DNA of 64,000 nt, taken from the IMG/VR virus record IMGVR_UViG_3300045988_141012; one strand, given 5' to 3'. Both the position numbers and the translations under genes were made by a program. Positions within the stretch are counted from its first letter, which is position 1. Every line of letters starts with the position of its first letter. The notes below the pieces were generated by a model. That model saw nothing but the letters and a program-made list of their open reading frames with translations. It had not been told where the DNA came from and searched no databases. Below, in pieces: positions 1,777-28,100 of the stretch. The DNA is from a virus.

Positions 1777-1778
1777 AT

Positions 1779-9191: not shown

Positions 9192-9197
9192 CTCCTT

Positions 9198-11479: not shown

Positions 11480-11494
11480 ATAATACTCACCACC

Positions 11495-13027
11495 TTAAAA
11501 ATCAACAGGCACATTTGTGATACCAATTTCATGCATAATATTTCTTGACATATCATGCGAAAATACTACTTGATATCTATTAGCAGAGCCTTCTCTATTT
11601 TTAATAATAAAAGCAATTTGATAATGTTTGTCCTTGTCTAACTTAACTGGAATTTTCGTTTTGCCGTTTTTCCCTTCAAGCCTATATACTTTTAATTCTC
11701 TTTTTTCGCCAGTATATTCATCATCATATAAATCACGAATCATAATACAAGTCGAAGCGGGATCGATAATATTCTTTGACATTCCAATATTATCTTGAGT
11801 ATAGTATCTTTGTTTTACACTTCCTTTTGCTAATTGGAATGTAATAAGAATATGTAAATTCTTCGATTCGGGTTTAATTACATCATTAATTTCAACCATG
11901 TTCTGTTGCATTTCAAGCCAAGATTTGTCGCTTACATCACCAGCATCCATTTTAAATGTATCAAGAATAAAGTATTTTACACCCATACTCGAATATTTTT
12001 TTATAATTTTAATTGCATTCTTTGTCTTATATTGTTTAAAAGGAACAATTGTAAGTATATGATTTTGTGTTTGTTCTTTAATCCAATCAGCGGCTTTATA
12101 GAGCAATTCCTTTGTGTCGTCTTGATAATGTCCATCTCTGACGATATGCTTTTGTAAATCCTCTTTAATTATGTTATTTGCAACAAATATAAGAAGTTCT
12201 CTTTGCCACTTTTTTAAGTTATCTTCGTTAATCATTGCAACAACACGTTCTTTTTCTTTTATTGCAGTTGGGACTGTAGCGTTTCTAGCAAATGTAGACT
12301 TTCCTACATTGCTTAATCCCCCAACTAATGTAATAGAACCTAAGTACTGCCCACCTGTTTCTTTTGTAATCATATCCATATTATGATATGGAAGCCCGAT
12401 CGCCAGCCCCTCATCAAGTTCTTCGATTAAATCATAAATACCATCGCATATATCATAACTTTTTACATCGCAATCTATATTTACAAATATATCATTAATA
12501 AAAGCCTCCCATTCATTATAGATTTCCTCAGCCGCCATATCACAATAATCACTTAATCTATCTCTCACAGGGCAGCCACGTTTTGCTAATTTTATAACAC
12601 TATTCCACTTGCGTAATTCCTGAATATATCCATATAGATTTTCTGTATTTACATAAGCACTTGCACTTACAATGGTGTCATATCCACCATATTCTTCATA
12701 TTTGCTTCTTAATTTGGGATGTTTTTCGAGATACAAACCAACTGTAATATCATCAAGTGCATTTTTCTTTTCAATTTTTACTATATCATTTGCAATAGTC
12801 CAATACACACGCCAAATATTATTATGAAATTCTTCCAATGTTAAATTGGTTTCAAATATTGAATCTGGCTTTTTATATAAAATACTTACCACATTAGCTT
12901 CGCAAGCTTCTTTATATTCATTTATCTTCTTTACTGTCTCAATTAGCTCCTGTTCAAATGGAGTTATCTTGTTGCCTTTTGTAACATTTTTCGTTGCTAT
13001 TGTCCTCGCCGCCTTACCATAACTCAT
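11495..13027 (-). CDS. replicative DNA helicase (DnaB-like, P-loop)
   Basis: 510 aa; Walker A GGLSNVGKST, Walker B-like YFILDTF; located beside the primase. Confidence 0.7.
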   Translation of the reverse strand: MSYGKAARTIATKNVTKGNKITPFEQELIETVKKINEYKEACEANVVSILYKKPDSIFETNLTLEEFHNNIWRVYWTIANDIVKIEKKNALDDITVGLYLEKHPKLRSKYEEYGGYDTIVSASAYVNTENLYGYIQELRKWNSVIKLAKRGCPVRDRLSDYCDMAAEEIYNEWEAFINDIFVNIDCDVKSYDICDGIYDLIEELDEGLAIGLPYHNMDMITKETGGQYLGSITLVGGLSNVGKSTFARNATVPTAIKEKERVVAMINEDNLKKWQRELLIFVANNIIKEDLQKHIVRDGHYQDDTKELLYKAADWIKEQTQNHILTIVPFKQYKTKNAIKIIKKYSSMGVKYFILDTFKMDAGDVSDKSWLEMQQNMVEINDVIKPESKNLHILITFQLAKGSVKQRYYTQDNIGMSKNIIDPASTCIMIRDLYDDEYTGEKRELKVYRLEGKNGKTKIPVKLDKDKHYQIAFIIKNREGSANRYQVVFSHDMSRNIMHEIGITNVPVDF

Positions 13028-13484
13028 TTAATCGTTCATTCTTTAGGTCTTCTGTTTTTTTCTGATATGTACCACCGTTATGAGAAAGAATATCCGTGTC
13101 CATATTCTGAATGCTTTCTTGCGTCTTTTCTGCGTTCTTTAATCTCATATATATATTGGGAATATCATTTTCAATAATTTTACATATATATCTCATTTGA
13201 GAAATCTCATTAGTAAAATTTTTCCCTTGTATGCTATTTAATATTTTATTTTTGTTTATTTGAAATGCAATGAGAACAGATTTAATTGGATACTTACTTT
13301 CTCCGTTATATTCTCTATGTCCAAAATCTTTGCCATTTACAAGACCTCTTAGTTGCAAACAGGATGCTTGTTTTAATTTTTGATTTTCATCATATTTGAA
13401 AATTTCTCTTTCTATATATTTACATAAATCAAAAAATTCTTGATTTTTATTTTCCTTTTTTCTTATTTCTCTCATAAAAATCAA
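13014..13484 (-). CDS. hypothetical protein (156 aa)
   Basis: ORF track; overlaps the helicase gene start by 14 nt. Confidence 0.55.
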   Translation of the reverse strand: MIFMREIRKKENKNQEFFDLCKYIEREIFKYDENQKLKQASCLQLRGLVNGKDFGHREYNGESKYPIKSVLIAFQINKNKILNSIQGKNFTNEISQMRYICKIIENDIPNIYMRLKNAEKTQESIQNMDTDILSHNGGTYQKKTEDLKNERLNELW

Positions 13485-13538
13485 CCTCCTATTTCATGGG
13501 GACAACATATATCGTGCATATTGTCCCCATATAGAATT

Positions 13539-14678
13539 TTACGAAATAAGTTCTAATACTATTTCAGCATCTTCAACCTTACTAATTGTTGTCGGATTTT
13601 CATATCCAAGTTCTTTTGTCTTGGCAATAATAGGCTTAATCTTGTCCATATCGGACTTATTATTTTTAATATAATCTGTAATTTGTGTAACTACATCTTC
13701 AAGTTTTTTGGTTTCTTTTTTTACCTGCTCTGCTTTTGCTACTTCTTTCAACTTTTTTGCTGTTTCTAATTCTTGCTCAGCCTTTGATTGTTCAAAAGTT
13801 TTGCCTGACTTAGATTGTTCTGCTTTAATTGCATCGGTAATCGCTTTTATAAGTGCGTCTGGAGTAAATTCAATTTCAGGAACAATATCTGCGAAACGAC
13901 TTTTGCTATCAATACAATAAGAATCATCTCTAAAAGTAATCTTTCTGCTTTCTTTAGCAACTACGCCTTTCATCTTTTCATTACCTTTATTGTCTTTTTT
14001 GCCTGTTTTTTGCTGAACAATTTCTCTATCAATGGAAGCCACTCCCAAAAAATGAAGCTTTGTTTTTATTGCATTAAAATCTCTTATTGACATGTTTGTT
14101 GTCAACGAACGATACTTTTGGTCAGTAAACATATCTTCTTGGTCACGTCGTTTAACATGTCCAATAATGATAAATGAAACACCAACTCTTTTTAAATTCC
14201 ATAACTTTTCTAAAACCATATCTACAGCTTTGTCTTCACCAGCCATATAGCCACCAAAAGCAGCCTTAATTGATTTGACTGGTTTGTCGGGATTTTCACG
14301 GTTATGCATTTCAATAACCTCTGCTTTTGCGATATCAATCAATTGGTCATATGTATCAATGACAACCGTTCTCAACAATGGATATTCTGTAGTTTTATTA
14401 TCAATGATATCATCAACCACATCTTCGAAACCAATAGAATTTTCTATCTCATCATAGTCGGCAGACCATTCACGGCAATTAATATAATTAATACCTTGAA
14501 TTGCGTCTGCACCATCTTCCTTGCCGCATTCCAAAAACAAATAACCATCATTTGAACCCGTAAGCTTTTCACACATTTCCTTAATAATTGTCGTTTTACC
14601 AATTCCACTTTCTCCTATCAAGCCAATATTATAAGCCAATGGATCAATTTTAACTACATTTTTTATTCCGTATGCCAT
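13539..14678 (-). CDS. AAA/RecA-fold ATPase (Sak4-like phage recombination/replication ATPase)
   Basis: Walker A GESGIGKTT, Walker B VVIDTYD; start moved to ATG 14678 behind AAGGAG (track start 14717 has no SD). Confidence 0.7.
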   Translation of the reverse strand: MAYGIKNVVKIDPLAYNIGLIGESGIGKTTIIKEMCEKLTGSNDGYLFLECGKEDGADAIQGINYINCREWSADYDEIENSIGFEDVVDDIIDNKTTEYPLLRTVVIDTYDQLIDIAKAEVIEMHNRENPDKPVKSIKAAFGGYMAGEDKAVDMVLEKLWNLKRVGVSFIIIGHVKRRDQEDMFTDQKYRSLTTNMSIRDFNAIKTKLHFLGVASIDREIVQQKTGKKDNKGNEKMKGVVAKESRKITFRDDSYCIDSKSRFADIVPEIEFTPDALIKAITDAIKAEQSKSGKTFEQSKAEQELETAKKLKEVAKAEQVKKETKKLEDVVTQITDYIKNNKSDMDKIKPIIAKTKELGYENPTTISKVEDAEIVLELIS

Positions 14679-14761
14679 ATAAAAATCTCCTTTGTTTAAT
14701 TTGTTTTGAGGTCGCATTTTACGACCTCATTTATATTTTTTATTCGTACTTATATTTATAT

Positions 14762-15943
14762 TTACAGTCTATTTAACCAATCGTTGTCATCGTTAGATGT
14801 ACTTTTATTTTCATCTGAATCTGTATCATCATCTATCTCATTTTCATAATCCTCATCTTCTGTGCTATACATAAAATCAGGGATTAGGTCTTCTTCTTCG
14901 TATTTTCGTTCAAACTTCTGAATAACAGGAGTTTTATTACCCTCTTTATCTTCGACTAGTTTAATAACTGGCTTTCGAATAACCATTCTTTTTTCTCGAC
15001 CAGAGTTTGCAGTGCACTTTGCAAGTGCCTCTTCAAGCGTAAATACATTAATTGCAATAAGTGCTTTAATATCATCGGGAAGGTCGTCTTCTGTTGCTGT
15101 GACCAAAGCACCACCCTCAATAAGATCTCCTTCAAAAGTCACTTCTGTAACATCTTTTCTAACTTTAAATATCTTATCTATGACTTTTTGTGCAATGTCA
15201 GGTGTTGATAAATCAAGTTCGAATTCAAATGTCTTATTATACGGAATATTAGCTCTTACTTCCTTACCTTTGTATTCCTTAATATAGTCCAACACCTTTG
15301 CATAGATTGGAAGAATGCCAGTTGTCTTATCTACCTTGCCGAGACTATCTTTTGTTAATAGCATTGTCTGTGTGAATTTAGCACAATACTTACTTGAGTC
15401 ATTAACTTTAGAAAGAACAACGCTATTTATCTCCTTTTTAACTTGCAATTCATCATTATACATAGAATATTTCAAGTTGCCCTTTACATTAACAACCATT
15501 CCATCTTCAAGATTTTCATTAATATACGCAATCATGTCATATGGTGCTAGAAATTTCTTATAGTAAACCTTGCCACCCTTATCTCTCTCAATGCCTACAG
15601 TTAAGTAACAAAGATCACCCACAGATTCTAGAATTGTTTCATCAAATCTGTCTTCCCAATCAATAGTAAATTTATTACTAAAATCATCTTTGCCGTTTTC
15701 GTCCTTGCCATGAACATAAATAACATTATCTCTTTCTGCACCGTAACCACCCATAAGTTCTGCATATACAGTTCCACAAGTTTCACCACAGTACACACCA
15801 AGATTCAAACTGTTATAAATCCAATCGGATTGTCCAGCTTTTGCGTCTAACTTATATGTATAATCATTAATTTTTGCTTCTCCAATAAGCATAAACGAGT
15901 TAGACCAATTTTTTTTCTCTAGTATTTTCTTTGTTTTCGCCAT
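14762..15943 (-). CDS. putative single-stranded DNA-binding protein
   Basis: Start moved to ATG 15943 behind AGGAGG; long acidic C-terminal tail (DDDTDSDENKSTSNDDNDW); replisome context. Confidence 0.45.
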   Translation of the reverse strand: MAKTKKILEKKNWSNSFMLIGEAKINDYTYKLDAKAGQSDWIYNSLNLGVYCGETCGTVYAELMGGYGAERDNVIYVHGKDENGKDDFSNKFTIDWEDRFDETILESVGDLCYLTVGIERDKGGKVYYKKFLAPYDMIAYINENLEDGMVVNVKGNLKYSMYNDELQVKKEINSVVLSKVNDSSKYCAKFTQTMLLTKDSLGKVDKTTGILPIYAKVLDYIKEYKGKEVRANIPYNKTFEFELDLSTPDIAQKVIDKIFKVRKDVTEVTFEGDLIEGGALVTATEDDLPDDIKALIAINVFTLEEALAKCTANSGREKRMVIRKPVIKLVEDKEGNKTPVIQKFERKYEEEDLIPDFMYSTEDEDYENEIDDDTDSDENKSTSNDDNDWLNRL

Positions 15944-16114
15944 TAAAATAAAATCCTCCTTGAAATAAAAATTAACGTAATAAAATCTATCTGAACGTCC
16001 AAATGGACGGAACATAGAATTAAATTTATGTGAACTATATGAACAGTGGTTTATGGACACAAATAGTCCAAGGGTATGCTAATTCCCACCCAAACAAAAT
16101 GATAAAAATAACAC

Positions 16115-16577: not shown

Positions 16578-17144
16578 TTATGACTCTAATATCCATCCTG
16601 TTCTAATCTCTTCTAGTGTTCTCGGCGTATAATCCATATACTTCATCATCGCACCGACATTGTACATATGACAAGGTTTATCATACAAAGTTCCCATTTC
16701 ATATCTAAAATGTTGTATCATATTTTCTTCAAAGCTGTTATGTACATGCCCATAAAGATGTACCCAATCATAATAATGATTTTTAAAACATGGCATTGGA
16801 TAATGACATAGAACAACTGAAACTTCATTGTCAATTTTTAGTTCCTTGTAATCTACAACCTCGACAAACAAGTTGTATAATTCTTTATTTTTTAATATTC
16901 TATTGTCATGATTTCCTTGAACTAAATGTATGTGCCCTTTTAACTGTTTAAAAATTTCAATAGTTTTGGTGGCATTGTGCCAAGATATATCTCCAAGAAC
17001 ATATACGTCATCATCAATTCCTACTACACTGTTCCAATTATCAATAATTGTTTTGTCATGTTCTTCTATATTGATAAATGGACGATTATCAAACTTTAAA
17101 ACATTCTTATGACCCAAATGTAAATCTGAAATAAAATAGTTCAT
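16578..17144 (-). CDS. calcineurin-type metallophosphoesterase
   Basis: Motifs DLHLGH, GDISWH, GNHD, GHVH. Confidence 0.85.
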   Translation of the reverse strand: MNYFISDLHLGHKNVLKFDNRPFINIEEHDKTIIDNWNSVVGIDDDVYVLGDISWHNATKTIEIFKQLKGHIHLVQGNHDNRILKNKELYNLFVEVVDYKELKIDNEVSVVLCHYPMPCFKNHYYDWVHLYGHVHNSFEENMIQHFRYEMGTLYDKPCHMYNVGAMMKYMDYTPRTLEEIRTGWILES

Positions 17145-17146
17145 GC

Positions 17147-17554
17147 TTAATTATTCTCCTTTAACAATCCACTCTTGACTAAATGCTGATGGATAATTTC
17201 TATAATCTGATTTTCTAAGAATTCATCAACATTATCTCGATCTCTAACATAATCCAATTCATCATTGATAAAATCTTCTATTATAGAAGTAAAGTCCATA
17301 TCCTCAATTGTTTTTACAATTTTCTTATGAATAAGTTCTTTATGTTCTTTTGTAAGAAATTCTTTAATATCATTCATATCAATATATTCTCCTTCTTGAT
17401 AAACTCTTTTGAACAGTTCCGTCAATTTTCTCAAATCGTCCTTGTCTAAGAGAAGGTATTTCCCAGGTGGATGTTCTTTCCTTATAGCCTGATACAAAAT
17501 ATCCATATACTCATCCCGAAACTTTTGTTCTCTATTAGATAACTCTTTACTCAT
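17147..17554 (-). CDS. hypothetical protein (135 aa, acidic, helical)
   Basis: ORF track; 2-nt gap to the phosphoesterase gene. Confidence 0.55.
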   Translation of the reverse strand: MSKELSNREQKFRDEYMDILYQAIRKEHPPGKYLLLDKDDLRKLTELFKRVYQEGEYIDMNDIKEFLTKEHKELIHKKIVKTIEDMDFTSIIEDFINDELDYVRDRDNVDEFLENQIIEIIHQHLVKSGLLKENN

Positions 17555-17566
17555 ATATTTCCTTTA

Positions 17567-18451
17567 TCACCTCTGTATATCGCATTCATGAAAATCCATA
17601 AGTATCTTATACTTATATTCTCCGAATCTTTTTCGCCAGCGTTGTTTCGTTTTTTCACTTTCCCAACTAAACGGCAACATATGATAATTGATAAGGAAAC
17701 ATATGTCTAATACTTCTAAATTTTGAGGTATTCGACTCAATACAAAATACGAACCGTATGCGTGATGGTCAAAGTAATGAGCTATGCCAAGATCATCAAA
17801 TGTTTGAGTTGACAATTTACCTAAGTCATGCATCATCGCACCGCCCAGCCAAGGATTTTCATAACCCTTTTCTTTCATTAATTTCTTAGTATTTAAACAA
17901 TGCTTGTACAAATCCATTGTGTGATGAGGATTCTTTTGGTCGAAATCTCCCATATAAGCTATTTCATTAACCAAATTTCTCACATGATTTTTAAATTCAT
18001 CATGAATAATAATCTTGCTCCACCCTTCCTCAATGAAAGGGATTTCAAATCTTCTAATTTGCTTTTCCAACACTTCATCGGGAACAGGGTGTGGTCTATT
18101 TTTATTATCTTGTTGACACCACTCGAATGGTTTCGGTATTATGTAACAAATCTTTTCTATGTCTAATCCGTTAACCTTATTTAGAATTGCCCGGCGAGAT
18201 TTCATTGTAATATTTGTTGCATCAGCTATCACATTGTATTTATTCTCCAAACGCTTTCGGATTAGTGTATGAAAAATTTCAAAGACTTCATCATTCTGAG
18301 ATTGGTCTCCGATTTCGCCGGTTAATTGTTCTCGTATCATATCAGTTGATATAATAACTGTATCAGGATTATCATTTGTAATCTGTTTTGCAATAGTAGA
18401 TTTGCCACTTCCGGACAAACCACACATAACATATAGTTTTGGTTTACTCAT
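17567..18451 (-). CDS. P-loop kinase fused to HD phosphohydrolase (polynucleotide kinase/phosphatase-like)
   Basis: N-terminal CGLSGSGKST P-loop; C-terminal HD signature (NPHHTMDLYKH ... GGAMMHDLGK ... FDHHAYG); start set to ATG 18451 behind GAGGTG. Confidence 0.7.
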   Translation of the reverse strand: MSKPKLYVMCGLSGSGKSTIAKQITNDNPDTVIISTDMIREQLTGEIGDQSQNDEVFEIFHTLIRKRLENKYNVIADATNITMKSRRAILNKVNGLDIEKICYIIPKPFEWCQQDNKNRPHPVPDEVLEKQIRRFEIPFIEEGWSKIIIHDEFKNHVRNLVNEIAYMGDFDQKNPHHTMDLYKHCLNTKKLMKEKGYENPWLGGAMMHDLGKLSTQTFDDLGIAHYFDHHAYGSYFVLSRIPQNLEVLDICFLINYHMLPFSWESEKTKQRWRKRFGEYKYKILMDFHECDIQR

Positions 18452-19247
18452 TCCTACACACCTCATTTTTTATACTGAATGTAATTAAGTTTGTCATCAC
18501 CTTTTCCATAACATCTTTTGCTTCAGTATTAATCTCCAATGGATTATTCTCCATATACTCTTGTTTATATTGTTTAATCCACTCACACGTTTCTTTTGCT
18601 AAATTTTTTGAATATTCTAATTCATAATGATAATTAGATTTAATATCGAGCAACATATCCTTATTTTTAGGGATTAAAATAGTACGGTAACTTTCGCCAT
18701 TACAATATCTTTCGATAAAATCTTTCAAACGTAAAATATGATGTAATTGTTTGGGGTCACAACCATATTTCTCAATCTTATCTACAATACTTGGATACGG
18801 ATATGTAAGAGCTTTGTACTTTTCAAATGCCATTCCGCACATACAATTAACACTTGCGTAATTGTTGTACCTTGCAATTTTTTCGGCATTATCAAGCATA
18901 GGTGCGAATAGTTCTTCATAAATTGGATTTAAAATATAATATTGAGTAAACAAAAGTTCAACAAAGTTAATATTTTGTTTCTTAAAACACTCAAACATTT
19001 TACGAATATCTTTCACATCACATAAGCAACCATTCCCCATATCAAGTGTCGTACTTACCGGTTGACGATTAAACACAATATCGTTTAATGTAGGAAGAAT
19101 TATTGCTTTTGAATCGACATCTGAACCAGAGTAATCCAACTCATAATTTTGTGAACCGTATAAAAATACACCAACAACATTGTAGCCTAACGATATAAGT
19201 TTGTCATAATGTTGTTGAATTTGATTTTGCACTTCTTGTTTAAACAT
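18444..19247 (-). CDS. Pol-beta-fold nucleotidyltransferase
   Basis: VFLYGSQNYELDYSGSDVDSKAI fits the hG[GS]-x(9-13)-DxD signature. Confidence 0.65.
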   Translation of the reverse strand: MFKQEVQNQIQQHYDKLISLGYNVVGVFLYGSQNYELDYSGSDVDSKAIILPTLNDIVFNRQPVSTTLDMGNGCLCDVKDIRKMFECFKKQNINFVELLFTQYYILNPIYEELFAPMLDNAEKIARYNNYASVNCMCGMAFEKYKALTYPYPSIVDKIEKYGCDPKQLHHILRLKDFIERYCNGESYRTILIPKNKDMLLDIKSNYHYELEYSKNLAKETCEWIKQYKQEYMENNPLEINTEAKDVMEKVMTNLITFSIKNEVCRNE

Positions 19248-20547
19248 CCTTCAATTCCTCCTTGAAGAGTACAGAATAATCGTCTACTCCCATTTCCTTT
19301 AATTTTTTATATCGAGGTGACTTTTTGTTGCCACTTTTTAAAACATTGATATCATGACCATAATATAATTCTCTACAATATACTTGATACTCCTTAGGAA
19401 CATTTTCTGAAACATATATCATAAAATCTTTTTTATTGGTTTTGGGAGCATCATCATAGTATTGTTTTATATTTTTTGTGGTCTCATTAATATACTTCAT
19501 AACAACGGTTGCTATCTTCTTAACATTTTCATGATAAGCCTTTGGTAATTTCGATAGTAAATCATCATAACAGCCGTCGGCGATAGAAGAAATCACTAAA
19601 TTGATAGACGATAACTTAGATAATACTTTATGAATATGAACATAATCATTGTATTTTAATTTAACCTTATAACCGTCAATGTTGATTACAAAACCTTCCG
19701 CTTCATCAGATGACTTATCGTCTAATTCGGTCATAACATCATCCAAGGTCTTGTTGAAGATTTCTGTTGTTGGAATATTGTATAATTTTGCGAATTTGAG
19801 AATTGATTCATATGAATATTCTTCGCCGGTCAAATTACTTCTCATGCCGATAAGATATAATCCTTCTTGCTCTTTTGTGTATTTAACGACATGTGTATCT
19901 TTCAATGAAATGTACTCAAAAACAAAAGTGATATCGGGATATTCTCGCAACATTTGCTCATAACCAGGTAGCTGATATATCATTTTATAACCATCTTGTA
20001 ATCTCCAAGACATATTTGGGTCAATAGATTGACTCCCTGCCATTATAATTTGACCGTTATACCAAGTAGCTGATTGCATAGAACCGTCCAACTTATTTGA
20101 AAATTCAACTGTTTTTGCATTATCAATTCTACTTTGTATATTCTCCAAACTTGTTTCTTCAAGTTCATTAATATTAAAGAATTTAGCAAAGGGACACAAA
20201 ACTATTTTGTCATTTACTATATCAATTACTATACTTCTACATTCACGATAAAATCCATCATATATACTCCATAATTCCTCACCAGAATTATCAATTTCTC
20301 CATTGTAGATGTCACTATATTGACCATATCTCAAAAGAAGAAAGTGTCCATTTTGATTTAGTTCTAATCGTGAAAGTAAGTCCGCATATTCAGAATATTG
20401 ATTTATGGGTTCAATACTATTTAAACATTCGACCCATAATTCCAAACATGTTTTCTTCTCATCCATGTTATATGTAATATATCCCATTCTTTTATGAAAC
20501 TCATTTTTTATTTCAATGAATTTATTCATTACTGGATTCCAACTCAT
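19240..20547 (-). CDS. RNA ligase (T4 Rnl1-like) with N-terminal extension
   Basis: Motif I NKLDGS, motif IV AEGFVI, motif V YKVKLK. Confidence 0.7.
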   Translation of the reverse strand: MSWNPVMNKFIEIKNEFHKRMGYITYNMDEKKTCLELWVECLNSIEPINQYSEYADLLSRLELNQNGHFLLLRYGQYSDIYNGEIDNSGEELWSIYDGFYRECRSIVIDIVNDKIVLCPFAKFFNINELEETSLENIQSRIDNAKTVEFSNKLDGSMQSATWYNGQIIMAGSQSIDPNMSWRLQDGYKMIYQLPGYEQMLREYPDITFVFEYISLKDTHVVKYTKEQEGLYLIGMRSNLTGEEYSYESILKFAKLYNIPTTEIFNKTLDDVMTELDDKSSDEAEGFVINIDGYKVKLKYNDYVHIHKVLSKLSSINLVISSIADGCYDDLLSKLPKAYHENVKKIATVVMKYINETTKNIKQYYDDAPKTNKKDFMIYVSENVPKEYQVYCRELYYGHDINVLKSGNKKSPRYKKLKEMGVDDYSVLFKEELKDV

Positions 20548-21091
20548 TAAACAACCTCCTCAATAATCCTCTTGGTCTTGGTTTGCTCCACCAACCCGAC
20601 ACAAAATCATAATTATCTTTATCATGAGTATAATGACCTCTGTATGTTTTCAATTCAGGAGTAAGCTTATCTATTACTTTGTCATATTCAATATGGTCAA
20701 ATGGAGCTTTTATATCATAATCGTCTTTTGTACTTATATCAAAACGAATATCGTCTAAGTCGGATTCTTGAGCATTATACTTCATATACTTGACTTCCTG
20801 ACATTCCGCCCAATTTATTAACTCATCTTCTAATTCATTTAAAGTAAGAAATCGTTCAGATTCATCATATATAGAAATCTTATCGGAATTTGTGGATAAA
20901 AATTCTTTCATTTCTTCAACAGAAGTATATGCATCGTTGTGTTGATTAAACAAAGGTTTCCATCCACCACTTCTATGTCCAATACAAATCTCATAGCCGA
21001 AACAAGGTTCGTCCACAAGTCTATACTCATTAAAGAAATATTTCTCAACAAATTCCTTGTTTTGCGTATGTATATAATATCTTGTACTCAT
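20522..21091 (-). CDS. hypothetical protein (189 aa)
   Basis: ORF track; overlaps the ligase gene start. Confidence 0.6.
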   Translation of the reverse strand: MSTRYYIHTQNKEFVEKYFFNEYRLVDEPCFGYEICIGHRSGGWKPLFNQHNDAYTSVEEMKEFLSTNSDKISIYDESERFLTLNELEDELINWAECQEVKYMKYNAQESDLDDIRFDISTKDDYDIKAPFDHIEYDKVIDKLTPELKTYRGHYTHDKDNYDFVSGWWSKPRPRGLLRRLFNELESSNE

Positions 21092-22640: not shown

Positions 22641-23873
22641 TTACAAATTTATAATTACAGGATGTGAATATGCACCCACTATCTCATTTGCTTTCACATT
22701 TGAGAATACTTTGCGCATTATTTGAAATGCCCCATTAACATCGGCATTTATATATTTTCCGTTGTTGCTTCTAAAAAGCCCTCTATAGACTCTTCGTAAT
22801 TTGTTGTAATTTTCTTTTATAGGTAATTCATCATCTAAGAAAGATGTTCCTGATGTATAAGTCTCTTCTGTTTCAATTAAATCAATGCCAACCTCTTCAC
22901 ATTTGTATTCAAGTTTTTTAATGAAACTCTCATACGGTATTTGAGTAAATGTTTGATTAACAACCTTATGCATATTTGATTTCTGTTTCCAACCATCGTT
23001 TTTACCAATAATAAGTGTTCCAATATTATGATTTACACAATAGTCAACGACCCACCTACTTGTACAATGCATGAAATATTCCATCTTGAAATATCTTTTA
23101 TTCGTGAGATTTTGCATCCGTTTAGTCCAATCCGATCCATTTATAGCTTTCGCAATTCTTCTTAGATTAGAAACTTTCTTATTCCAATATTGGTTATAAG
23201 ATTTGATTCCTTTGCCATTTATAACAATAGAAGGTTCTTCTATGTTATTTACCATTGTTACAAAGTTGTTTATTCCTAAATCAATTGAGGAGATTCTGTT
23301 TCTATCCAAATTATTTATAAACTGCTTTTCATCCCTATAGACAATTTCAATAATGTAACAACCACCCTTAGGAATAATTCTTGTCCCAAGATGATAGCCT
23401 ATAACTTTTGTGTGAATAAGATTATTGTACTTCTTCATTCTTTTAAAAGAAAAATATAAATATCCATCTTTAATATGTGTCTGCATATTAGTCAATGTGC
23501 AAATAAATCTGCCATCTTTCTTTTTATAAGCAGGAATTTTAGGTTTACCCAAATACTTTTTGGGATGCATCGTGTAATCTTTAACTGCTACAAGAAATGA
23601 TTTCCATGACTTACATAAAGATTTTGTAACCATCTGTGCTGCATTTGATCCAAGTTCCACAAAAGCGTCAGTATGCTTTAATTCCTTATTCAAGACACCA
23701 TACTTCTTAACTGTCTTTGTTCTGAAGAACTCTTGCCGAATTGTATAATTACAAAGGTTATACATGTTCTTTGCCAAAAAGCATAAATTATCACAAGCTA
23801 AATACATTGGATGATTTTTGTTGATTATATGTCTCTCTACTTTATTAAAATTAATACCCCCTTTACTTAACAT
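22641..23873 (-). CDS. tnpB: TnpB-family RNA-guided nuclease (IS200/IS605 orfB type, no zinc finger)
   Basis: RuvC triad: SIDLGINNF, IETEETYTS, INADVNGAFQIMRK; no CxxC pair between E and D; start uncertain (ATG 23873 or TTG 23924). Confidence 0.8.
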   Translation of the reverse strand: MLSKGGINFNKVERHIINKNHPMYLACDNLCFLAKNMYNLCNYTIRQEFFRTKTVKKYGVLNKELKHTDAFVELGSNAAQMVTKSLCKSWKSFLVAVKDYTMHPKKYLGKPKIPAYKKKDGRFICTLTNMQTHIKDGYLYFSFKRMKKYNNLIHTKVIGYHLGTRIIPKGGCYIIEIVYRDEKQFINNLDRNRISSIDLGINNFVTMVNNIEEPSIVINGKGIKSYNQYWNKKVSNLRRIAKAINGSDWTKRMQNLTNKRYFKMEYFMHCTSRWVVDYCVNHNIGTLIIGKNDGWKQKSNMHKVVNQTFTQIPYESFIKKLEYKCEEVGIDLIETEETYTSGTSFLDDELPIKENYNKLRRVYRGLFRSNNGKYINADVNGAFQIMRKVFSNVKANEIVGAYSHPVIINL

Positions 23874-23878
23874 ATTCT

Positions 23879-24198
23879 CTATTTTATAAAACTTAATATA
23901 TGAGATATTACTGAAACCGTCCAACCATTACCAATACTTGTGCTTCGGAAACACCGTCGCAGAATGTATAATTATCAGGCAATGTTTGCAATCGATCTGC
24001 TACTGTTGTATTTAATTTTCTCACCTCATTTCACATCAAATACAATCCAGTACATGCACCAAGTCCACCGCCATTCGTTGTAATCGAACAGGCAATGCCC
24101 TCACTGCTATATACTCTGTATCCTTGTTTATAATTTCGTGAAAGTTGTTTACCGTCCTTTAACCACATATTACTATCAACTCCACCAACAAAAATTAA
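23879..24198 (-). pseudogene. decayed C-terminal fragment of a second C5 cytosine methyltransferase
   Basis: Reads QGYRVYSSEGIACSITTNGGGLG...TGLY, in-frame TGA (24033-24031), RKLN..RLQTLPDNYTF, then a frameshift before GNGWTVSVI; no start codon and no N-terminal catalytic motifs. Confidence 0.7.
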
Positions 24199-25697
24199 TT
24201 CATTGGCGGTTTCTGAAAATTTATCATTTTCTCATCGGTACAAACATATGTATTATCGTACTGAGCTTTATAAAGGTGTTCTGCTAATAATGAAATAACA
24301 GTTGTTACAATACTATTTCCCGACTGTTTATATCCTTGAGAATCTGACATACCGACCGCCTTACATCTTTCATAATCAATGTCATCAAAACCCATAAGTC
24401 TATGTGCTTCTTTAGGAGTAAGTTTTCTCACCACTCTAAGGTTATTTCTTTCAACCTTTGGCTCTGTATTGCCACCTCCACAAGTATGCATTGTTGGTGC
24501 AATACCGTCTTCGCTATATACTCTGCGAGATTGTTCATTCGTTTTTTGAAATCTTTCGCTACATAAATCAGCAATATGAATTAAATTATTTGAATCTGCA
24601 AAAATCTGTTTAGGTTGTTTATAATCTGTTGCCACCAATGCACCCATAATTGCATCTTCCTTATAAACTAAATCCCTCTGACCTATAGTTCTAAATTCAG
24701 GTTTTGTTGTGCCAATAATATTCTTCTCGAATTTGGAATCGGTAATTTGAAGTCTTTGTTGTACCTCATCAGATAAAAAATATTTTTCCAAAACATCTTT
24801 ATCTGTTTCTAATAAATCCTTTAATCTGATTCCTGTATCAAATGGTTTTGGAAATGTAAATAACTTTGTATCAATATCTTTACGAATTGATATACAAAAA
24901 ATTCTATTACGATTTTGTGGAATACCTGCATTCTTCGCATTAATTGTTTGATAATATGAATTGTATCCAAGATTATCAAGTCTACCAATCCAATCCTTAA
25001 AACTATCAATATATTTTTTCGATATAAGAGCATCGACATTTTCCATAAGTAAATATTTTGGCAATGTATTATTCTCTTTTGCCGTTACAAGAAGTCGTTC
25101 AACTTCATACAACAAACCCGAACGAGTTGATTTAATATTATGGCTACCACAATTGGGACAAGTATAACGAGTATCAACATCTAATTCTGATGGATTATAT
25201 TCACACTCACAATCTTGACAAGTCCATTTTAAACCCTCTTGTTTGCCAGCGATTGAAAGATCAGTACAGGGTGTAGAGTATGTAAGTAAATCGCTATATG
25301 GAAGGGATTTTATTTGCATCATATCTCCAAGATTATGTGATAGATAATCTGCTAACCAATATTTTTCAATTCCTTTTGTTTTATCTTTTCTTCGCGATAA
25401 TTTTTCCCAATCATATGGCTTGTCTTTCTTAAAATCATATCCAAGTCTTTTATCTGTTAGTTCTTTGACCATCATTTCTTTACTCGGATAATCTGCATAA
25501 TTTTCTATCATATCAGTGGTTAAGCCACAATGTATTGCAGCGTAACTGACTACTACTTCTTTATCCAAATCTGCTGTTGCAATCATATTAGCATTGAACA
25601 AGTGAGTATTATTTATACCTTTCATCTGTGCTCCAATGCCACTACAAAGTTCAATAACTGTTAAATTTTCTAATAAATTATTTTTCTCTGTGTTCAA
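24195..25697 (-). CDS. dcm: DNA (cytosine-5)-methyltransferase
   Basis: Motif I ELCSGIG, IV TPCTDLS, VI MENV, VIII QNRNRIF, RKLTPKEAHRLMGF, X GNSIV; TTG start. Confidence 0.9.
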   Translation of the reverse strand: MNTEKNNLLENLTVIELCSGIGAQMKGINNTHLFNANMIATADLDKEVVVSYAAIHCGLTTDMIENYADYPSKEMMVKELTDKRLGYDFKKDKPYDWEKLSRRKDKTKGIEKYWLADYLSHNLGDMMQIKSLPYSDLLTYSTPCTDLSIAGKQEGLKWTCQDCECEYNPSELDVDTRYTCPNCGSHNIKSTRSGLLYEVERLLVTAKENNTLPKYLLMENVDALISKKYIDSFKDWIGRLDNLGYNSYYQTINAKNAGIPQNRNRIFCISIRKDIDTKLFTFPKPFDTGIRLKDLLETDKDVLEKYFLSDEVQQRLQITDSKFEKNIIGTTKPEFRTIGQRDLVYKEDAIMGALVATDYKQPKQIFADSNNLIHIADLCSERFQKTNEQSRRVYSEDGIAPTMHTCGGGNTEPKVERNNLRVVRKLTPKEAHRLMGFDDIDYERCKAVGMSDSQGYKQSGNSIVTTVISLLAEHLYKAQYDNTYVCTDEKMINFQKPPMN

Positions 25698-25799
25698 ATT
25701 TATTTACCATACAGAGATTGTACAATCATTTATAACCGGTGTTTACTGTTTTATCCTTTCTATATTTTTATTTCTATAAAATAAACACGTCTGCTTATT

Positions 25800-26529
25800 T
25801 TATTTTGAATAATGCTGTATGTATTTTAAATTATTTTGATGTACAAACAATTTTTCTGTGACTTTAAACTGATTGTTTTTGTTTACATCTAAAGTTCTTG
25901 TAAATGGTTTACTCCAAATTGCCACAAAATCATCTGGTGCATTTTGTTCGGAGATAAACACAATATGATCTTTGCTTGTTTCTCTCATATAATTCCAAAA
26001 TTCGTTTGAGTCAAATTTTTCTTTTCCATACCCTGTTGTTCCATTATACGGAGGATCGGCATATACTACGCAATTTTGCGGAAGTTCTACCTCACGATAA
26101 TCTTTGCATATAAATTCCGCATCCATAAGAGTATTCATATCCTTTAACAACGATCTTTTGCTCTGGGCTGCATAATTTGTTCCTGTTTTATTCCTTGCAT
26201 ATCCGCCAAACCATTTACCTCCAAACGAACATCCAAATCCTACAAACCCAGCTAAAACTTTATCCTCGTCCTTATGTTCTTTTATATACTTATAATCATC
26301 TACAGATATATTCTCTGGCAAATCATATCCATGTTTAACCCCATTTAAGAGTTCAATCAAATATTCATGTTTATCATTTAATATTTTTCTTGCAAATCCA
26401 TCAACTTTACTTTCTATTGAACAACTTCCACAGAAAAGACTTACAAATGTCAGATTATCCCCCCCCAGTTCCTGTTATTATCATTGCAATTTGTTTCGCT
26501 ATTCTTGATTTTCCACCTTGGTATCTCAT
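25800..26529 (-). CDS. dam: Dam-family N6-adenine DNA methyltransferase, split by a +1 frame break at a G8 run
   Basis: ATG 26529 behind GGAGG gives MRYQGGKSRIAKQI; stop right after G8; the rest (FVSLFCGS ... YADPPYNG) continues in another frame to 25800; largest intact ORF is 25800-26360. Confidence 0.8.
26459..26466 (-). repeat. homopolymer G8 (C8 on plus strand) inside the dam gene
   Basis: Counted directly: cagattat-cccccccc-agtt. Confidence 0.9.
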
Positions 26530-28027: not shown

Positions 28028-28100
28028 TTTAAATTCCTCCTTATAATTGATTACAATCATCTTCATTGAATATAATTGTATTCATATATACATTCTCTTT

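What the first reader, a model, noticed from the sequence alone, without database searches (positions are those of the whole stretch)
16578..20547. Multi-gene RNA healing-and-sealing island with an added nucleotidyltransferase
Five consecutive minus-strand genes form the island.
- A calcineurin-type metallophosphoesterase (DLHLGH, GDISWH, GNHD, GHVH).
- A 135-aa protein of unknown function.
- A P-loop kinase (CGLSGSGKST) fused to an HD phosphohydrolase.
- A Pol-beta-fold nucleotidyltransferase (YGSQN...SDVDSKAI).
- An Rnl1-type ligase (NKLDGS, EGFVI, KVKLK) with an N-terminal extension of about 150 aa.

T4 PseT plus RnlA repair tRNAs cut by host anticodon nucleases. Here the end-healing chemistry seems spread over three enzymes. 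A nucleotidyltransferase is also added, which could rebuild trimmed 3' ends. I do not recognise this five-gene layout as a described phage system. My inference is counter-defence against RNA-cleaving immunity.
Basis: partly seen in the sequence, partly recalled or inferred. Interest (0 to 1): 0.75.

Follow-up and report, generated by a model that had tools for sequence, protein, structure and literature searches.

The report
Phage RNA break-repair gene cassette
A very common human-gut prophage carries a tight block of genes predicted to mend cut RNA (probably tRNA) by cleaning the broken ends, re-adding lost nucleotides and sealing the break; it is a well-preserved example of a repair-system type already described by comparative genomics, not a new kind of system.

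Summary
The five minus-strand genes are real and sit exactly where reported. They encode an Rnl1-type RNA ligase, a Pol-beta nucleotidyltransferase, a polynucleotide kinase fused to an HD phosphohydrolase, a 135-aa ORFan and a binuclear metallophosphoesterase (MPE).

The nucleotidyltransferase is a divergent relative of RlaP (PF10127), the RNA-ligase-associated family. Burroughs & Aravind (2016) predicted that RlaP restores nucleotides lost at RNA breaks. A 2025 preprint showed it adds 1-2 NMPs to RNA 3'-OH ends. T4 itself encodes one (NrdC.11).

Across 82 diverged relatives:
- NTase and kinase-HD are next to each other in 56 of 58 viral loci.
- An RNA ligase is usually close by, but its family changes (PF09414 types in most, Rnl1 in few).
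- The MPE recurs beside the NTase in several arrangements. In one it is apparently fused to the NTase; in another it follows a kinase that has no HD domain.
- The 135-aa protein is confined to this phage lineage and its function is unknown.

Two claims are not: the layout is not undescribed, and the ligase N-terminal extension is about 40-55 aa, not 150. I call it a new member of a known kind, of moderate interest. No step has been tested biochemically for these proteins.

The parts
19240..20547 (-). Rnl1-type (T4 RnlA family) ATP-dependent RNA ligase, 435 aa. Motif I lysine is K152 (NKLDGS), motif IV is EGFVI 284-288, motif V is KVKLK 294-298. The N-terminus is about 40-55 aa longer than in T4 Rnl1.
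   Evidence: PF09511 5.8e-26, 92.2 bits against cut-off 28.3. phrog_562 1.4e-45. T4 Rnl1 structures 2c5u/5tt6 at about 4e-13, aligned over query 97-356. TIGR02308 scores 68 bits, below the equivalog cut-off of 242. Lysine positions compared.
18444..19247 (-). Pol-beta-fold nucleotidyltransferase, 267 aa, a divergent RlaP-like protein. GS motif at 31-32. Invariant carboxylates D43, D45 and D80.
   Evidence: phrog_388 3.6e-11. The window protein itself has no Pfam hit. 13 of 31 close homologues hit PF10127, best 6.4e-05. Homologues in phages LC76P1, Sundance and Phass-1 pass the PF10127 cut-off. hhalign of A1 against the LC76P1 protein gives 99.9%. The AF2 model has pLDDT 92.8. Its best structural neighbour is the Bacillus phage BCD7 NTase at TM 0.82; PDB aminoglycoside NTases reach only TM 0.41-0.45.
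17567..18466 (-). Bifunctional end-healing enzyme, 299 aa (294 aa from M6). N-terminal P-loop 5'-OH polynucleotide kinase with G21 K22 and D42. C-terminal HD phosphohydrolase with H182, H213-D214, H234, H262 and D296.
   Evidence: AAA_33 5.9e-24 and HD 22.7 bits against cut-off 22. phrog_505 polynucleotide kinase 5.3e-21. With the family profile: CthPnkp kinase 4gp7 at 2.8e-25, T4 Pnk at 6.6e-9, and the HD part matching PDB 3wfp-3wfs chains (deposited as 'Poly A polymerase') at 2e-10. Invariant residues are from the 27-sequence alignment A2. The gene is next to the NTase in 56 of 58 diverged viral loci.
17147..17554 (-). 135-aa acidic, predicted all-helical protein of unknown function. It is a lineage-restricted ORFan.
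   Evidence: No Pfam, PHROG, NCBIfam or PADLOC hit. Only 14 clusters match among 1.84 billion representatives; the distant ones are 71-100-aa proteins matching residues ~53-134. The 120 best hits listed (of 209) are all at least 96% identical. It is absent from every diverged locus. The AF2 single-sequence model is unusable at pLDDT 40.5.
16578..17144 (-). Binuclear metallophosphoesterase (calcineurin-like fold, aq_1665/phrog_547 type), 188 aa, with a complete metal-binding motif set. Probably a second 3'-end phosphoesterase of the system.
   Evidence: phrog_547 6.9e-45. PDB 1xm7 3.3e-11. Weak PdeM match, TIGR04123 4.3e-05. Homologues lie directly beside the NTase in L100, L104 and L114, one gene away in L109, and apparently fused to it in L110; a homologue directly follows a stand-alone kinase in L112. 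It is within 6 kb in 9 of 58 viral loci.
20522..21091 (-). 189-aa ORF of unknown function that overlaps the ligase start codon region by 26 nt. Possible sixth member; unproven.
   Evidence: ORF. No family hit. Conserved at 92-100% only within the window's phage clade.

Best explanation
This is a phage-encoded RNA (most likely tRNA) break-repair cassette of the RlaP-associated, ATP-dependent-ligase type. Proposed order of events, all inferred from homology:
1. A host ribonuclease cuts an RNA and leaves 5'-OH and 2',3'-cyclic-phosphate (or 3'-phosphate) ends, sometimes removing one or two nucleotides as well.
2. The P-loop kinase domain phosphorylates the 5'-OH end.
3. The HD domain, helped or backed up by the separate MPE, removes the 2',3'-cyclic or 3'-phosphate to give a 3'-OH.
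4. The RlaP-like NTase adds one or two nucleotides to that 3'-OH and so fills in what was excised.
5. The Rnl1 ligase seals 3'-OH to 5'-phosphate.

Shown here: the family assignments, intact catalytic residues, and conserved, shuffled gene linkage across many phages. Shown elsewhere for relatives: tRNA repair by T4 Pnkp/Rnl1, RlaP adding 1-2 NMPs to RNA 3'-OH ends, and Runella HD-Pnk described as a dual end-healing enzyme. Not shown for these proteins: any activity, the natural RNA target, the host nuclease being countered, or any role for the 135-aa protein.
For: Family assignments:
- Ligase: PF09511 5.8e-26; aligned to T4 Rnl1 structures through motifs IV and V and into the C-terminal region.
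- Kinase: closest to the C. thermocellum Pnkp and T4 Pnk kinases.
- HD domain: all of H, HD, H, H and D are invariant in 27 diverged homologues. Its best solved relatives are PDB 3wfp-3wfs ('Poly A polymerase') at 2e-10, and it weakly matches the actinobacterial CCA tRNA nucleotidyltransferase model TIGR02692 at 2e-4.
- NTase: carries the GS...DxD...D signature. It is linked by 99.9% hhalign probability to a phage protein that passes the RlaP cut-off. 13 of 31 homologues hit RlaP. Relatives in Sundance and Phass-1 pass the cut-off too.

Synteny:
- NTase and kinase-HD are adjacent in 56 of 58 diverged viral loci.
- An RNA ligase lies within 6 kb in 48 of 58 loci, drawn from three families and four sequence clusters.
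- Rnl1-NTase-kinase-HD occurs in the same order at 42/52/36% identity in a Clostridium MAG, L095.
- Thg1, a tRNA 5'-end repair enzyme, lies within 6 kb in 4 viral loci, directly upstream of the NTase in L034 and L038, and again in genome locus L108.
- The MPE is apparently fused to the NTase in L110, and follows a stand-alone kinase with no HD domain in L112.

Literature:
- RlaP adds 1-2 NMPs to RNA 3'-OH ends and is proposed as the antidote to nucleotide-excising ribotoxins such as RloC (PMC12776372).
- Phage RlaP distribution mirrors that of RNA ligases (PMC7824862).
- Runella HD-Pnk is described as a 2',3'-phosphoesterase plus 5'-OH kinase (PMC6097658).
Against: - The window NTase itself does not score against PF10127 at all. 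hhalign to T4 NrdC.11 covers only 33 columns at 39% probability.
- The best PDB fold matches are aminoglycoside NTases and the Hailong HalB enzyme, though only at TM 0.37-0.45.
- The published PfRlaP crystal structure was not among the sequence or fold matches, so no direct comparison with it was obtained.
- The ligase falls well below the T4 RnlA equivalog cut-off.
- The block lies right next to a DNA-replication module, and some end-healing kinases of this class also act on DNA.
- The window has no tRNA genes and no Rfam-recognised RNA.
- Two phosphoesterases look redundant.
- Nothing ties the 135-aa protein to the pathway except its position.
- No biochemical or genetic test exists for this cassette.
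Confidence: 0.72

Rival explanations
1. Only ligase + NTase + kinase-HD form the functional unit. The MPE and the 135-aa protein are unrelated neighbours in a long co-directional gene array, and the MPE does something else, such as degrading nucleotide signals or processing DNA ends.
For: - The MPE family occurs in 1,674 phage records across many hosts.
- In Vibrio, Escherichia and Pseudomonas phages, which account for most MPE matches, neither the NTase nor the kinase-HD search found any match.
- Only 9 of 58 diverged viral loci have the MPE within 6 kb.
- The 135-aa protein is confined to one phage lineage.
- No terminator or promoter signal delimits an operon.
Against: - MPE homologues sit directly beside the NTase in L100, L104 and L114 and one gene away in L109.
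- The MPE appears fused to the NTase in L110.
- It directly follows a kinase that lacks an HD domain in L112.
- These are several different arrangements, which is hard to get by chance for a single gene in a genome of 100-250 genes.
- For the MPE I therefore reject this rival; for the 135-aa protein it stays open.
Confidence: 0.3
2. The cassette repairs DNA rather than RNA. It would heal and seal nicks or gaps with 5'-OH/3'-phosphate ends in phage DNA, as part of the adjacent replication/recombination module.
For: - The block lies immediately upstream of the AAA_24 ATPase, DnaB-like helicase, PDDEXK nuclease and Pol III alpha genes.
- Munir & Shuman's 2017 title calls Runella HD-Pnk a DNA/RNA end-healing enzyme, and its partner ligase sealed none of the substrates tested (both as cited in PMC6097658).
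- The MPE has a weak match to the DNA-damage endonuclease PdeM.
Against: - The ligase belongs to the Rnl1/RnlA RNA-ligase family, and in relatives it is replaced by PF09414 RNA ligases, not by DNA ligases.
- Thg1 lies beside the NTase in related loci.
- The kinase's next-best solved relative is a tRNA kinase, PSTK.
Confidence: 0.08
3. The NTase is not a repair enzyme. It would be a small-molecule or antibiotic nucleotidyltransferase, or a signalling or toxin NTase (KNTase-, HalB- or MenT-like), so the block would be a prophage defence or toxin module rather than counter-defence.
For: - The top PDB fold hits are ANT(4') kanamycin NTase and Hailong HalB.
- The element is a prophage carried in bacterial chromosomes.
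- It lies next to a variable accessory region with TnpB and methyltransferases.
Against: - Those fold matches are weak (TM 0.37-0.45, 10-14% identity). Phage NTases related to RlaP match at TM 0.74-0.82.
- No PADLOC defence model matches the NTase, ligase or MPE.
- The near-obligate pairing with a polynucleotide kinase and with RNA ligases fits repair, not small-molecule modification.
Confidence: 0.05

Closest known systems
Bacteriophage T4 tRNA repair (Pnkp + Rnl1, with NrdC.11 as an RlaP-family member)
   Same: - Rnl1-family ligase.
- 5'-OH polynucleotide kinase of the same P-loop clade.
- An RlaP-family NTase in the same genome: T4 NrdC.11 scores 46.6 bits on PF10127.
- A counter-defence role against anticodon nucleases (PMC12776372, PMC7824862).
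   Different: - From my own knowledge, T4's 3'-phosphatase is a HAD-type domain fused to the kinase. Here it is an HD domain plus a separate MPE.
- From my own knowledge of the T4 map, the T4 genes are scattered, whereas here they overlap or abut.
- The window ligase is only distantly related to T4 Rnl1 (E about 4e-13) and has a longer N-terminus.
RlaP (PF10127) RNA-ligase-associated NTases: PfRlaP and PaRlaP of Pseudomonas (Carruthers, Fatma & Huang 2025 preprint); family named by Burroughs & Aravind 2016
   Same: - GS...DxD...D catalytic signature.
- An NTase domain followed by a helical C-terminal domain.
- Genomic linkage to RNA ligases and end-healing enzymes.
- A predicted role in refilling nucleotides lost at RNA breaks.
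   Different: - The characterised RlaPs sit in RtcB/RtcA operons with a 3'-phosphate ligase. This one accompanies 5'-phosphate ATP-dependent ligases.
- The window protein is too divergent to score on the Pfam model and belongs to a subfamily of over 3,000 proteins; none of the 120 listed has a relevant precomputed Pfam hit.
Runella slithyformis HD-Pnk with its adjacent ligase (Munir & Shuman 2017, as described in PMC6097658)
   Same: A single polypeptide combines an HD 2',3'-phosphoesterase with a P-loop 5'-OH polynucleotide kinase, and it is encoded next to, and overlapping, an ATP-dependent ligase.
   Different: - The domain order is reversed: kinase at the N-terminus and HD at the C-terminus here.
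- It is bacterial rather than phage.
- The cluster described in PMC6097658 lists Tpt1 and a methyltransferase-HIT protein, not an RlaP or an MPE.
Clostridium thermocellum Pnkp (of the Pnkp/Hen1 bacterial RNA repair system)
   Same: - Its kinase domain is the closest solved structure (4gp7, 2.8e-25 with the family profile).
- From my own knowledge, it uses a binuclear metallophosphoesterase for 3'-end healing and an ATP-dependent ligase for sealing.
   Different: - From my own knowledge, CthPnkp has kinase, MPE and ligase in one polypeptide and works with the Hen1 2'-O-methyltransferase.
- Here the parts are separate genes, there is no methyltransferase, there is an extra HD domain and an NTase, and the MPE is of the small aq_1665/phrog_547 type.
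Large Bacillus siphophages (e.g. vB_BanS_Skywalker, PK-3, pW2): RnlA-family ligase followed directly by kinase-HD
   Same: - The same two-gene pair, Rnl1-type ligase then kinase-HD, already annotated as 'tRNA ligase' + 'polynucleotide kinase'.
- The same genomes also carry a homologue of the window NTase.
   Different: - In Skywalker and PK-3 the RlaP-like NTase lies 15-21 kb away rather than between ligase and kinase.
- No phrog_547-type MPE was detected beside the pair.
- Identities are low: 25% for the kinase-HD and 25% for the ligase.

Membership tests
Rnl1 / T4 RnlA RNA ligase family (PF09511, TIGR02308) | Scores above the Pfam RNA_lig_T4_1 gathering cut-off | tested here: met
   92.2 bits against 28.3, E 5.8e-26, residues 102-300.
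Rnl1 / T4 RnlA RNA ligase family (PF09511, TIGR02308) | Covalent nucleotidyltransferase motifs I (KxDG lysine), IV (EGxV) and V (KxK) aligned with those of T4 Rnl1 | tested here: met
   K152 in NKLDGS, EGFVI 284-288 and KVKLK 294-298. Motifs IV and V align to T4 'EGYVA...FKIKSD' in the phmmer alignment with 2c5u.
Rnl1 / T4 RnlA RNA ligase family (PF09511, TIGR02308) | Equivalog-level similarity to T4 RnlA (NCBIfam TIGR02308 cut-off) | tested here: not met
   68.2 bits against a cut-off of 242.25. It is a family member but not an orthologue-grade match.
Rnl1 / T4 RnlA RNA ligase family (PF09511, TIGR02308) | Seals 3'-OH/5'-phosphate RNA ends, with a preference for broken tRNA anticodon loops | not testable with these tools
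   Needs enzyme assays.
RlaP (PF10127) RNA-ligase-associated Pol-beta NTase | Scores above the PF10127 gathering cut-off (23 bits) | tested here: not met
   The window protein gives no PF10127 hit even at E <= 10. Of 31 close homologues, 13 give sub-threshold or marginal hits, best 6.4e-05.
RlaP (PF10127) RNA-ligase-associated Pol-beta NTase | Demonstrable homology to proteins that are members | tested here: met
   The LC76P1 phage protein (28.3 bits on PF10127) aligns to the window family profile at 99.9% probability over 229 columns. Sundance (39.3 bits) and Phass-1 (24.9 bits) are tblastn homologues at 30% and 38.5% identity. Direct hhalign to T4 NrdC.11 is weak: 33 columns, 39%.
RlaP (PF10127) RNA-ligase-associated Pol-beta NTase | GS motif and three conserved catalytic aspartates; NTase domain plus C-terminal helical domain | tested here: met
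   G31, S32, D43, D45 and D80 are invariant in A1. The AF2 model (pLDDT 92.8) has an N-terminal alpha/beta NTase domain followed by helices. The published PfRlaP structure was not among the matches, so no direct superposition was obtained.
RlaP (PF10127) RNA-ligase-associated Pol-beta NTase | Genomic association with RNA ligases and end-healing enzymes | tested here: met
   A ligase lies within 6 kb in 48 of 58 diverged viral loci, and the kinase-HD is adjacent in 56 of 58.
RlaP (PF10127) RNA-ligase-associated Pol-beta NTase | Adds 1-2 NMPs to RNA 3'-OH ends | not testable with these tools
   The activity is reported only for PfRlaP and PaRlaP (PMC12776372).
5'-OH polynucleotide kinase (Pnkp / T4 Pnk clade of P-loop kinases) | P-loop GxxxxGK[ST] plus a catalytic Asp, and closest similarity to polynucleotide kinases rather than nucleotide kinases | tested here: met
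   GLSGSGKST 16-24, and D42 and R45 invariant. CthPnkp kinase 2.8e-25, Pnkp1 6.2e-12 and T4 Pnk 6.6e-9, whereas adenylate kinases score about 4e-4. phrog_505 polynucleotide kinase 5.3e-21.
HD phosphohydrolase superfamily (PF01966) | Pfam cut-off and the H...HD...H...H...D metal-binding residues | tested here: met
   22.7 bits against a cut-off of 22, so marginal. H182, H213, D214, H234, H262 and D296 are invariant in 27 homologues. The profile matches PDB 3wfp-3wfs chains ('Poly A polymerase') at 2e-10.
Runella-type HD-Pnk bifunctional end-healing enzyme | Architecture: N-terminal HD domain, C-terminal kinase domain | tested here: not met
   The order here is kinase (about 1-150) then HD (about 180-296). 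It has the same two activities in one chain but a different architecture, so it probably works like HD-Pnk without being a member of that architecture.
Calcineurin-like binuclear metallophosphoesterases (PF00149 / PF12850) | Pfam cut-off | tested here: not met
   The window protein has no PF00149 or PF12850 hit even at E <= 10. Its homologues L100:4452-4976 (46% identical over the aligned part; 31.0 bits against 27) and L112:9714-10253 (42.6 bits against 21.5) do pass.
Calcineurin-like binuclear metallophosphoesterases (PF00149 / PF12850) | Signature DxH...GD...GNH[DE]...H...GHxH, and homology to a solved member | tested here: met
   D7/H9, D52, N78/H79, H114 and H133/H135 are all present. PDB 1xm7 (Aquifex aq_1665) 3.3e-11. 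phrog_547 'phosphoesterase' 6.9e-45.
Clostridium thermocellum-type Pnkp (kinase-phosphatase-ligase in one chain, partnered with Hen1) | Single-polypeptide kinase + MPE + ligase, with an adjacent Hen1 methyltransferase | tested here: not met
   The genes are separate here. TIGR04075 matches only the kinase part (63.6 bits against 750). No methyltransferase was found among the five block genes or the three flanking ORFs scanned.

The most novel reading that the evidence does not exclude
The evolutionarily stable core is not 'ligase plus healers' but the pair 'RlaP-like NTase + a 3'-phosphoesterase' (HD or MPE). This pair occurs in small phages with no ligase or kinase detected within 5 kb (L100, L104, L114), and once apparently as a single fused protein (L110). 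The pair could therefore be a self-sufficient 'dephosphorylate (or trim) and refill' device for RNA 3' ends. One possible job is rebuilding tRNA 3' tails cut by tail-cleaving immune nucleases; in larger phages such as this one a ligase and kinase would be added to handle internal breaks as well. In that reading the window's two phosphoesterases serve two different kinds of broken end, and the lineage-specific 135-aa protein could be a specificity or scaffolding factor.
Probability: 0.2. Interest if true: 0.6.

Novelty: new member of a known kind. Interest (0 to 1): 0.35.

Why it matters
If the prediction holds, a very widespread human-gut prophage of Clostridia carries a complete kit for undoing tRNA-cutting immunity, including cuts that remove a nucleotide. 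One variant of its 135-aa protein is indexed in 2,995 blocks of the public assembly collection.

The cassette would be a compact, natural test bed for three open points:
- whether phage RlaP enzymes really cooperate with 5'-phosphate RNA ligases, which the 2025 RlaP work inferred but did not test;
- why some cassettes carry two different 3'-phosphoesterases;
- what the obligate NTase/kinase-HD pairing means mechanistically.

It does not change how the field classifies RNA repair systems.

Tried and rejected
- **DNA match to known phages.** Megablast of the block against 50,697 phage records found nothing, so no close cultured relative exists.
- **Direct RlaP assignment by sequence.** The window NTase gave no Pfam or NCBIfam hit, and PDB sequence searches with the protein and with its profile gave nothing. 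The assignment had to be made through homologues.
- **Direct comparison with the PfRlaP crystal structure.** It did not appear among the PDB sequence or fold matches, so no comparison with it was obtained.
- **Aminoglycoside-NTase or HalB reading.** Considered because these are the top PDB fold hits. Rejected as generic fold similarity (TM 0.37-0.45) compared with TM 0.74-0.82 for phage RlaP-like NTases.
- **Defence-system reading.** PADLOC gave no meaningful hit.
- **The 135-aa protein.**
  - Homologue search, an exhaustive HMMER search, pairwise comparison with the same-position proteins of L001 and L095, and single-sequence AF2 all failed to give a function.
  - The one distant homologue whose context I could see sits on a 1.2-kb contig with no repair genes.
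- **Associated RNA.** No tRNA and no Rfam family in the window.
- **Operon limits.** The promoter and terminator scan was no better than shuffled sequence.
- **Literature.**
  - Burroughs & Aravind 2016 and Munir & Shuman 2017 are not held in the library. I cite them only through papers that describe them.
  - The RlaP preprint's supplementary operon figure is also not held.

Full report
**1. The observation**

The five ORFs exist on the minus strand at exactly the stated coordinates.

| Gene | Coordinates | Length |
|---|---|---|
| Ligase | 19240-20547 | 435 aa |
| Nucleotidyltransferase (NTase) | 18444-19247 | 267 aa |
| Kinase-HD | 17567-18466 | 299 aa (public gene calls use the M6 start, 294 aa) |
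| Unknown protein | 17147-17554 | 135 aa |
| Metallophosphoesterase (MPE) | 16578-17144 | 188 aa |

The genes overlap or nearly abut: overlaps of 8 and 23 nt, then gaps of 12 and 2 nt. All quoted motifs are present. A further 189-aa ORF (20522-21091) overlaps the ligase start by 26 nt. The window is about 31% G+C and almost wholly transcribed from the minus strand.

**2. What each protein is**

*Ligase.*
- It matches Pfam RNA_lig_T4_1 at 5.8e-26 and phrog_562 at 1.4e-45.
- It aligns to T4 Rnl1 crystal-structure sequences at about 4e-13 across motifs IV and V and into the C-terminal region.
- It falls below the NCBIfam equivalog cut-off for T4 RnlA (68 against 242 bits).
- The alignment starts at query residue 97 against T4 residue 50. 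The active-site lysine is K152, compared with T4 K99 (literature numbering), K114/K115 in Bacillus phage RnlA proteins and K94 in a metagenomic relative.
- The N-terminal extension is therefore about 40-55 aa, not about 150.

*Kinase-HD.*
- The N-terminal domain is a P-loop kinase. Its best solved relatives are the kinase domain of Clostridium thermocellum Pnkp (4.6e-14 with the single sequence, 2.8e-25 with the family profile), a tRNA kinase (PSTK), Pnkp1 and T4 Pnk.
- The C-terminal domain just passes the HD Pfam cut-off (22.7 against 22 bits).
- In an alignment of 27 homologues at 28-49% identity, H182, H213-D214, H234, H262 and D296 are invariant, as are the P-loop GK and D42.
- The HD part matches PDB 3wfp-3wfs chains, deposited as 'Poly A polymerase', at 2e-10. 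It also weakly matches the actinobacterial CCA tRNA nucleotidyltransferase model TIGR02692 at 2e-4.

*MPE.* It has the full binuclear metal-binding signature. It matches phrog_547 'phosphoesterase' at 6.9e-45 and Aquifex aq_1665 (PDB 1xm7) at 3.3e-11. There is a weak match to the ligase-associated endonuclease PdeM.

*NTase.*
- It matches phrog_388 'nucleotidyltransferase' at 3.6e-11 but nothing in Pfam or NCBIfam and nothing in PDB by sequence.
- It has more than 3,000 homologues. None of the 120 listed has a relevant precomputed Pfam hit (one fragment carries an unrelated PF03275).
- When 31 of them were scanned one by one, 13 hit PF10127 (RlaP), the best at 6.4e-05.
- Its homologues in Lysinibacillus phage LC76P1 (28.3 bits), Brevibacillus phage Sundance (39.3) and gut phage Phass-1 (24.9) pass the RlaP cut-off of 23. 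The T4 NrdC.11 control scores 46.6.
- The window family profile aligns to the LC76P1 protein at 99.9% probability. It aligns to T4 NrdC.11 only over the 33-column catalytic motif.
- The invariant residues G31, S32, D43, D45 and D80 fit the Pol-beta catalytic set.
- The AF2 model is confident (pLDDT 92.8). Its best matches among predicted viral structures are phage NTases (Bacillus phage BCD7 TM 0.82, Mater 0.75; also phage G gp218, PaBG and baculovirus HE65).
- Its best PDB matches are kanamycin NTase and Hailong HalB at TM 0.37-0.45 only. That is generic fold similarity.
- I conclude it is a divergent RlaP-like protein at the edge of PF10127.

*135-aa protein.*
- It has no family match.
- Only 14 clusters match among 1.84 billion representatives. 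The distant ones are 71-100-aa proteins matching residues ~53-134.
- The 120 best homologues listed (of 209) are all at least 96% identical.
- The single-sequence structure prediction is unusable.

**3. Conservation of the layout**

A scan of IMG/VR returned 80 loci.
- About 22 are the window's own phage clade (93-100% identity). They keep all five genes plus the two upstream ORFs.
- Among 58 loci analysed (57 diverged ones at 43-79% NTase identity plus one representative of the window's clade), the kinase-HD lies directly beside the NTase in 56.
- An RNA ligase lies within 6 kb in 48 of the 58, but its type changes:

| Ligase type | Loci |
|---|---|
| PF09414 with a PHA02142 OB-fold domain, cluster c2 | 38 |
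| PF09414 with a PHA02142 OB-fold domain, cluster c21 | 5 |
| PF09414 alone | 3 |
| Rnl1 (the window's clade and L029) | 2 |

- Thg1 (tRNA-His guanylyltransferase) lies within 6 kb of the NTase in four viral loci, directly upstream of it in L034 and L038.

A scan of one genome per species gave 24 more loci in Clostridia, Bacilli and others.
- They include chromosomal prophages in Konateibacter massiliensis and Clostridiales bacterium CCNA10.
- A Clostridium MAG (L095) has Rnl1-NTase-kinase-HD in the window's order at 42/52/36% identity.

In cultured Bacillus phages (Skywalker, PK-3, pW2 and others) an RnlA-family ligase is followed directly by a kinase-HD. The pair is annotated 'tRNA ligase' and 'polynucleotide kinase'. 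In Skywalker and PK-3 the RlaP-like gene lies 15-21 kb away.

**4. Is the MPE part of the system?**

It lies within 6 kb in only 9 of the 58 viral loci, and the family is very widespread in phages (1,674 records). On that evidence alone it could be a bystander.

The genome loci argue otherwise:
- MPE homologues are directly adjacent to the NTase, with no kinase-HD nearby, in L100, L104 and L114. In L109 one gene separates them.
- In L112 a stand-alone 182-aa kinase with no HD domain is followed immediately by an MPE.

Repeated adjacency in different arrangements, an apparent fusion, and apparent replacement of HD by MPE all point to a real functional link. I therefore count the MPE as a member. 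Nothing comparable supports the 135-aa protein or the upstream 189-aa ORF.

**5. Mechanism**

The most likely pathway is classical healing and sealing with a refill step:
1. The kinase phosphorylates the 5'-OH end.
2. The HD domain, the MPE or both convert 2',3'-cyclic or 3'-phosphate into 3'-OH.
3. The NTase adds back one or two nucleotides.
4. Rnl1 seals the break.

Each step rests on homology to characterised enzymes:
- T4 Pnkp/Rnl1 repair of PrrC-cut tRNA-Lys (summarised in PMC12776372 and PMC7824862).
- Runella HD-Pnk as a dual healer (PMC6097658).
- PfRlaP and PaRlaP, which add 1-2 NMPs to RNA 3'-OH ends and were needed to restore aminoacylation of over-damaged tRNA. The authors propose them as the antidote to nucleotide-excising ribotoxins such as RloC (PMC12776372).

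That preprint notes that RlaP products are directly compatible with 5'-phosphate ligases, which is the situation here. None of this has been tested for the window's proteins.

**6. Rivals**

- *DNA repair.* The adjacent replication module (AAA_24, YorH-like, DnaB-like, PDDEXK, Pol III alpha) suggests it. The RNA-ligase families, the RNA specificity reported for RlaP and the Thg1 neighbours argue against it.
- *Small-molecule or signalling NTase, or a prophage defence module.* The weak PDB fold hits suggest it. The PADLOC-negative result and the ligase and kinase linkage argue against it.
- *Some genes are bystanders.* I reject this for the MPE. It stays open for the 135-aa protein.

**7. Comparison with what is known, and novelty**

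- The general design of RNA ligase, NTase, kinase, phosphoesterase and optional cofactors, with frequent swapping of parts, is as I recall the thesis of Burroughs & Aravind 2016. That paper is not held here; I cite it through PMC12776372 and PMC7824862.
- Iyer et al. 2021 state that RlaP is the most prevalent such NTase in jumbo phages, that its distribution mirrors that of RNA ligases, and that a few phages use calcineurin-like and HD phosphatases.
- The window's cassette fits this description and adds one specific combination: Rnl1 + divergent RlaP + kinase-HD (the reverse domain order of Runella HD-Pnk) + MPE + ORFan.
- It is therefore a new member of a known kind.
- Three points are mildly new. 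The NTase/kinase-HD coupling in this subfamily is near-obligate. The NTase-MPE link includes an apparent fusion. The host phage is very abundant: one variant of the 135-aa protein is indexed in 2,995 assembly blocks and occurs on contigs over 3 Mb, under a name given by NCBI as Hominilimicola fabiformis (Oscillospiraceae).

**8. Verdict**

- Observation: confirmed, with the ligase extension corrected.
- Interpretation: partly supported. The function is right by inference; the novelty claim is wrong.
- Interest: 0.35.

Noticed in passing
window 22641-23924 (-): A 427-aa TnpB-type protein (OrfB_IS605 7.5e-14 plus the Cas12f1-like TNB domain 3.1e-09) sits about 2 kb upstream of the cassette. No adjacent TnpA was looked for, and no omega-RNA or transposon ends were searched.
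   Followed up: partly
window 24195-26360 (-): A C5 cytosine DNA methyltransferase (500 aa, 3.3e-49) and a short D12-class N6-adenine methyltransferase-like ORF (186 aa) lie just beyond the TnpB gene. They are probably anti-restriction genes. In sister strains this region varies: an N6_N4 methylase, a radical-SAM protein or an nSTAND3/AAA protein takes its place. It looks like a hot spot for accessory genes next to the repair cassette.
   Followed up: partly
window 1-16060 (-); loci L090-L092: Downstream of the cassette is a replication module with an AAA_24 ATPase, an SPbeta YorH-like protein, a DnaB-like helicase, a PDDEXK nuclease and a 1107-aa Pol III alpha/PHP polymerase. The element therefore looks like a large (about 110-160 kb) SPbeta-like prophage of gut Clostridia. 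The cassette's 135-aa protein variant P0169 is indexed in 2,995 blocks of the assembly collection.
   Followed up: partly
window 16578-17554 compared with L005-L027: Within the window's own clade the ligase, NTase and kinase-HD can be 100% identical while the 135-aa protein and the MPE are only 98% and 95% identical. The reverse pattern occurs in other strains, e.g. L005 with MPE at 98% and the ligase at 96%. This suggests recombination breakpoints inside the cassette.
   Followed up: no
L110:32-1132: A single open reading frame appears to join an RlaP-like NTase (C-terminal part; the contig ends inside it) to a calcineurin-like phosphoesterase domain (residues 193-329, PF12850 27.0 bits) in an Eubacteriales MAG. 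This apparent fusion needs checking on an independent assembly.
   Followed up: partly
L034:5153-5989, L038, L043, L045, L108: Thg1-family genes (PF04446 5.1e-31 for L034) lie within 6 kb of the RlaP-like NTase in several related phages, directly upstream of it in L034 and L038. This hints that some versions also repair tRNA 5' ends.
   Followed up: partly
L042, L048-L079 (upstream of the PF09414-type ligase); L007:about 500-1843 (same phage clade as the window; window position not mapped): Many related loci carry runs of three to six small paralogous genes with an N-terminal 'F-V-T-N-S-S-S-S-S-F' motif (clusters c4, c5, c6) just upstream of the ligase. A similar 'TNSSS' protein (c25) recurs next to a radical-SAM-like protein (c26), including in the window's own clade. 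One c25 member gave no Pfam match; c4-c6 were not scanned. Function unknown.
   Followed up: no
L065:11765-12769 and L033: A WGR + PARP catalytic-domain protein (PF00644 3.2e-17) lies near the NTase/kinase-HD pair in two related phages. It is directly upstream of the NTase in L033.
   Followed up: no
window 27167-28066 (-): A 299-aa protein combines DUF7666 (5.2e-35) with pentapeptide repeats (5.7e-15). Pentapeptide-repeat proteins can mimic DNA, so it may be an anti-restriction or anti-defence candidate.
   Followed up: no
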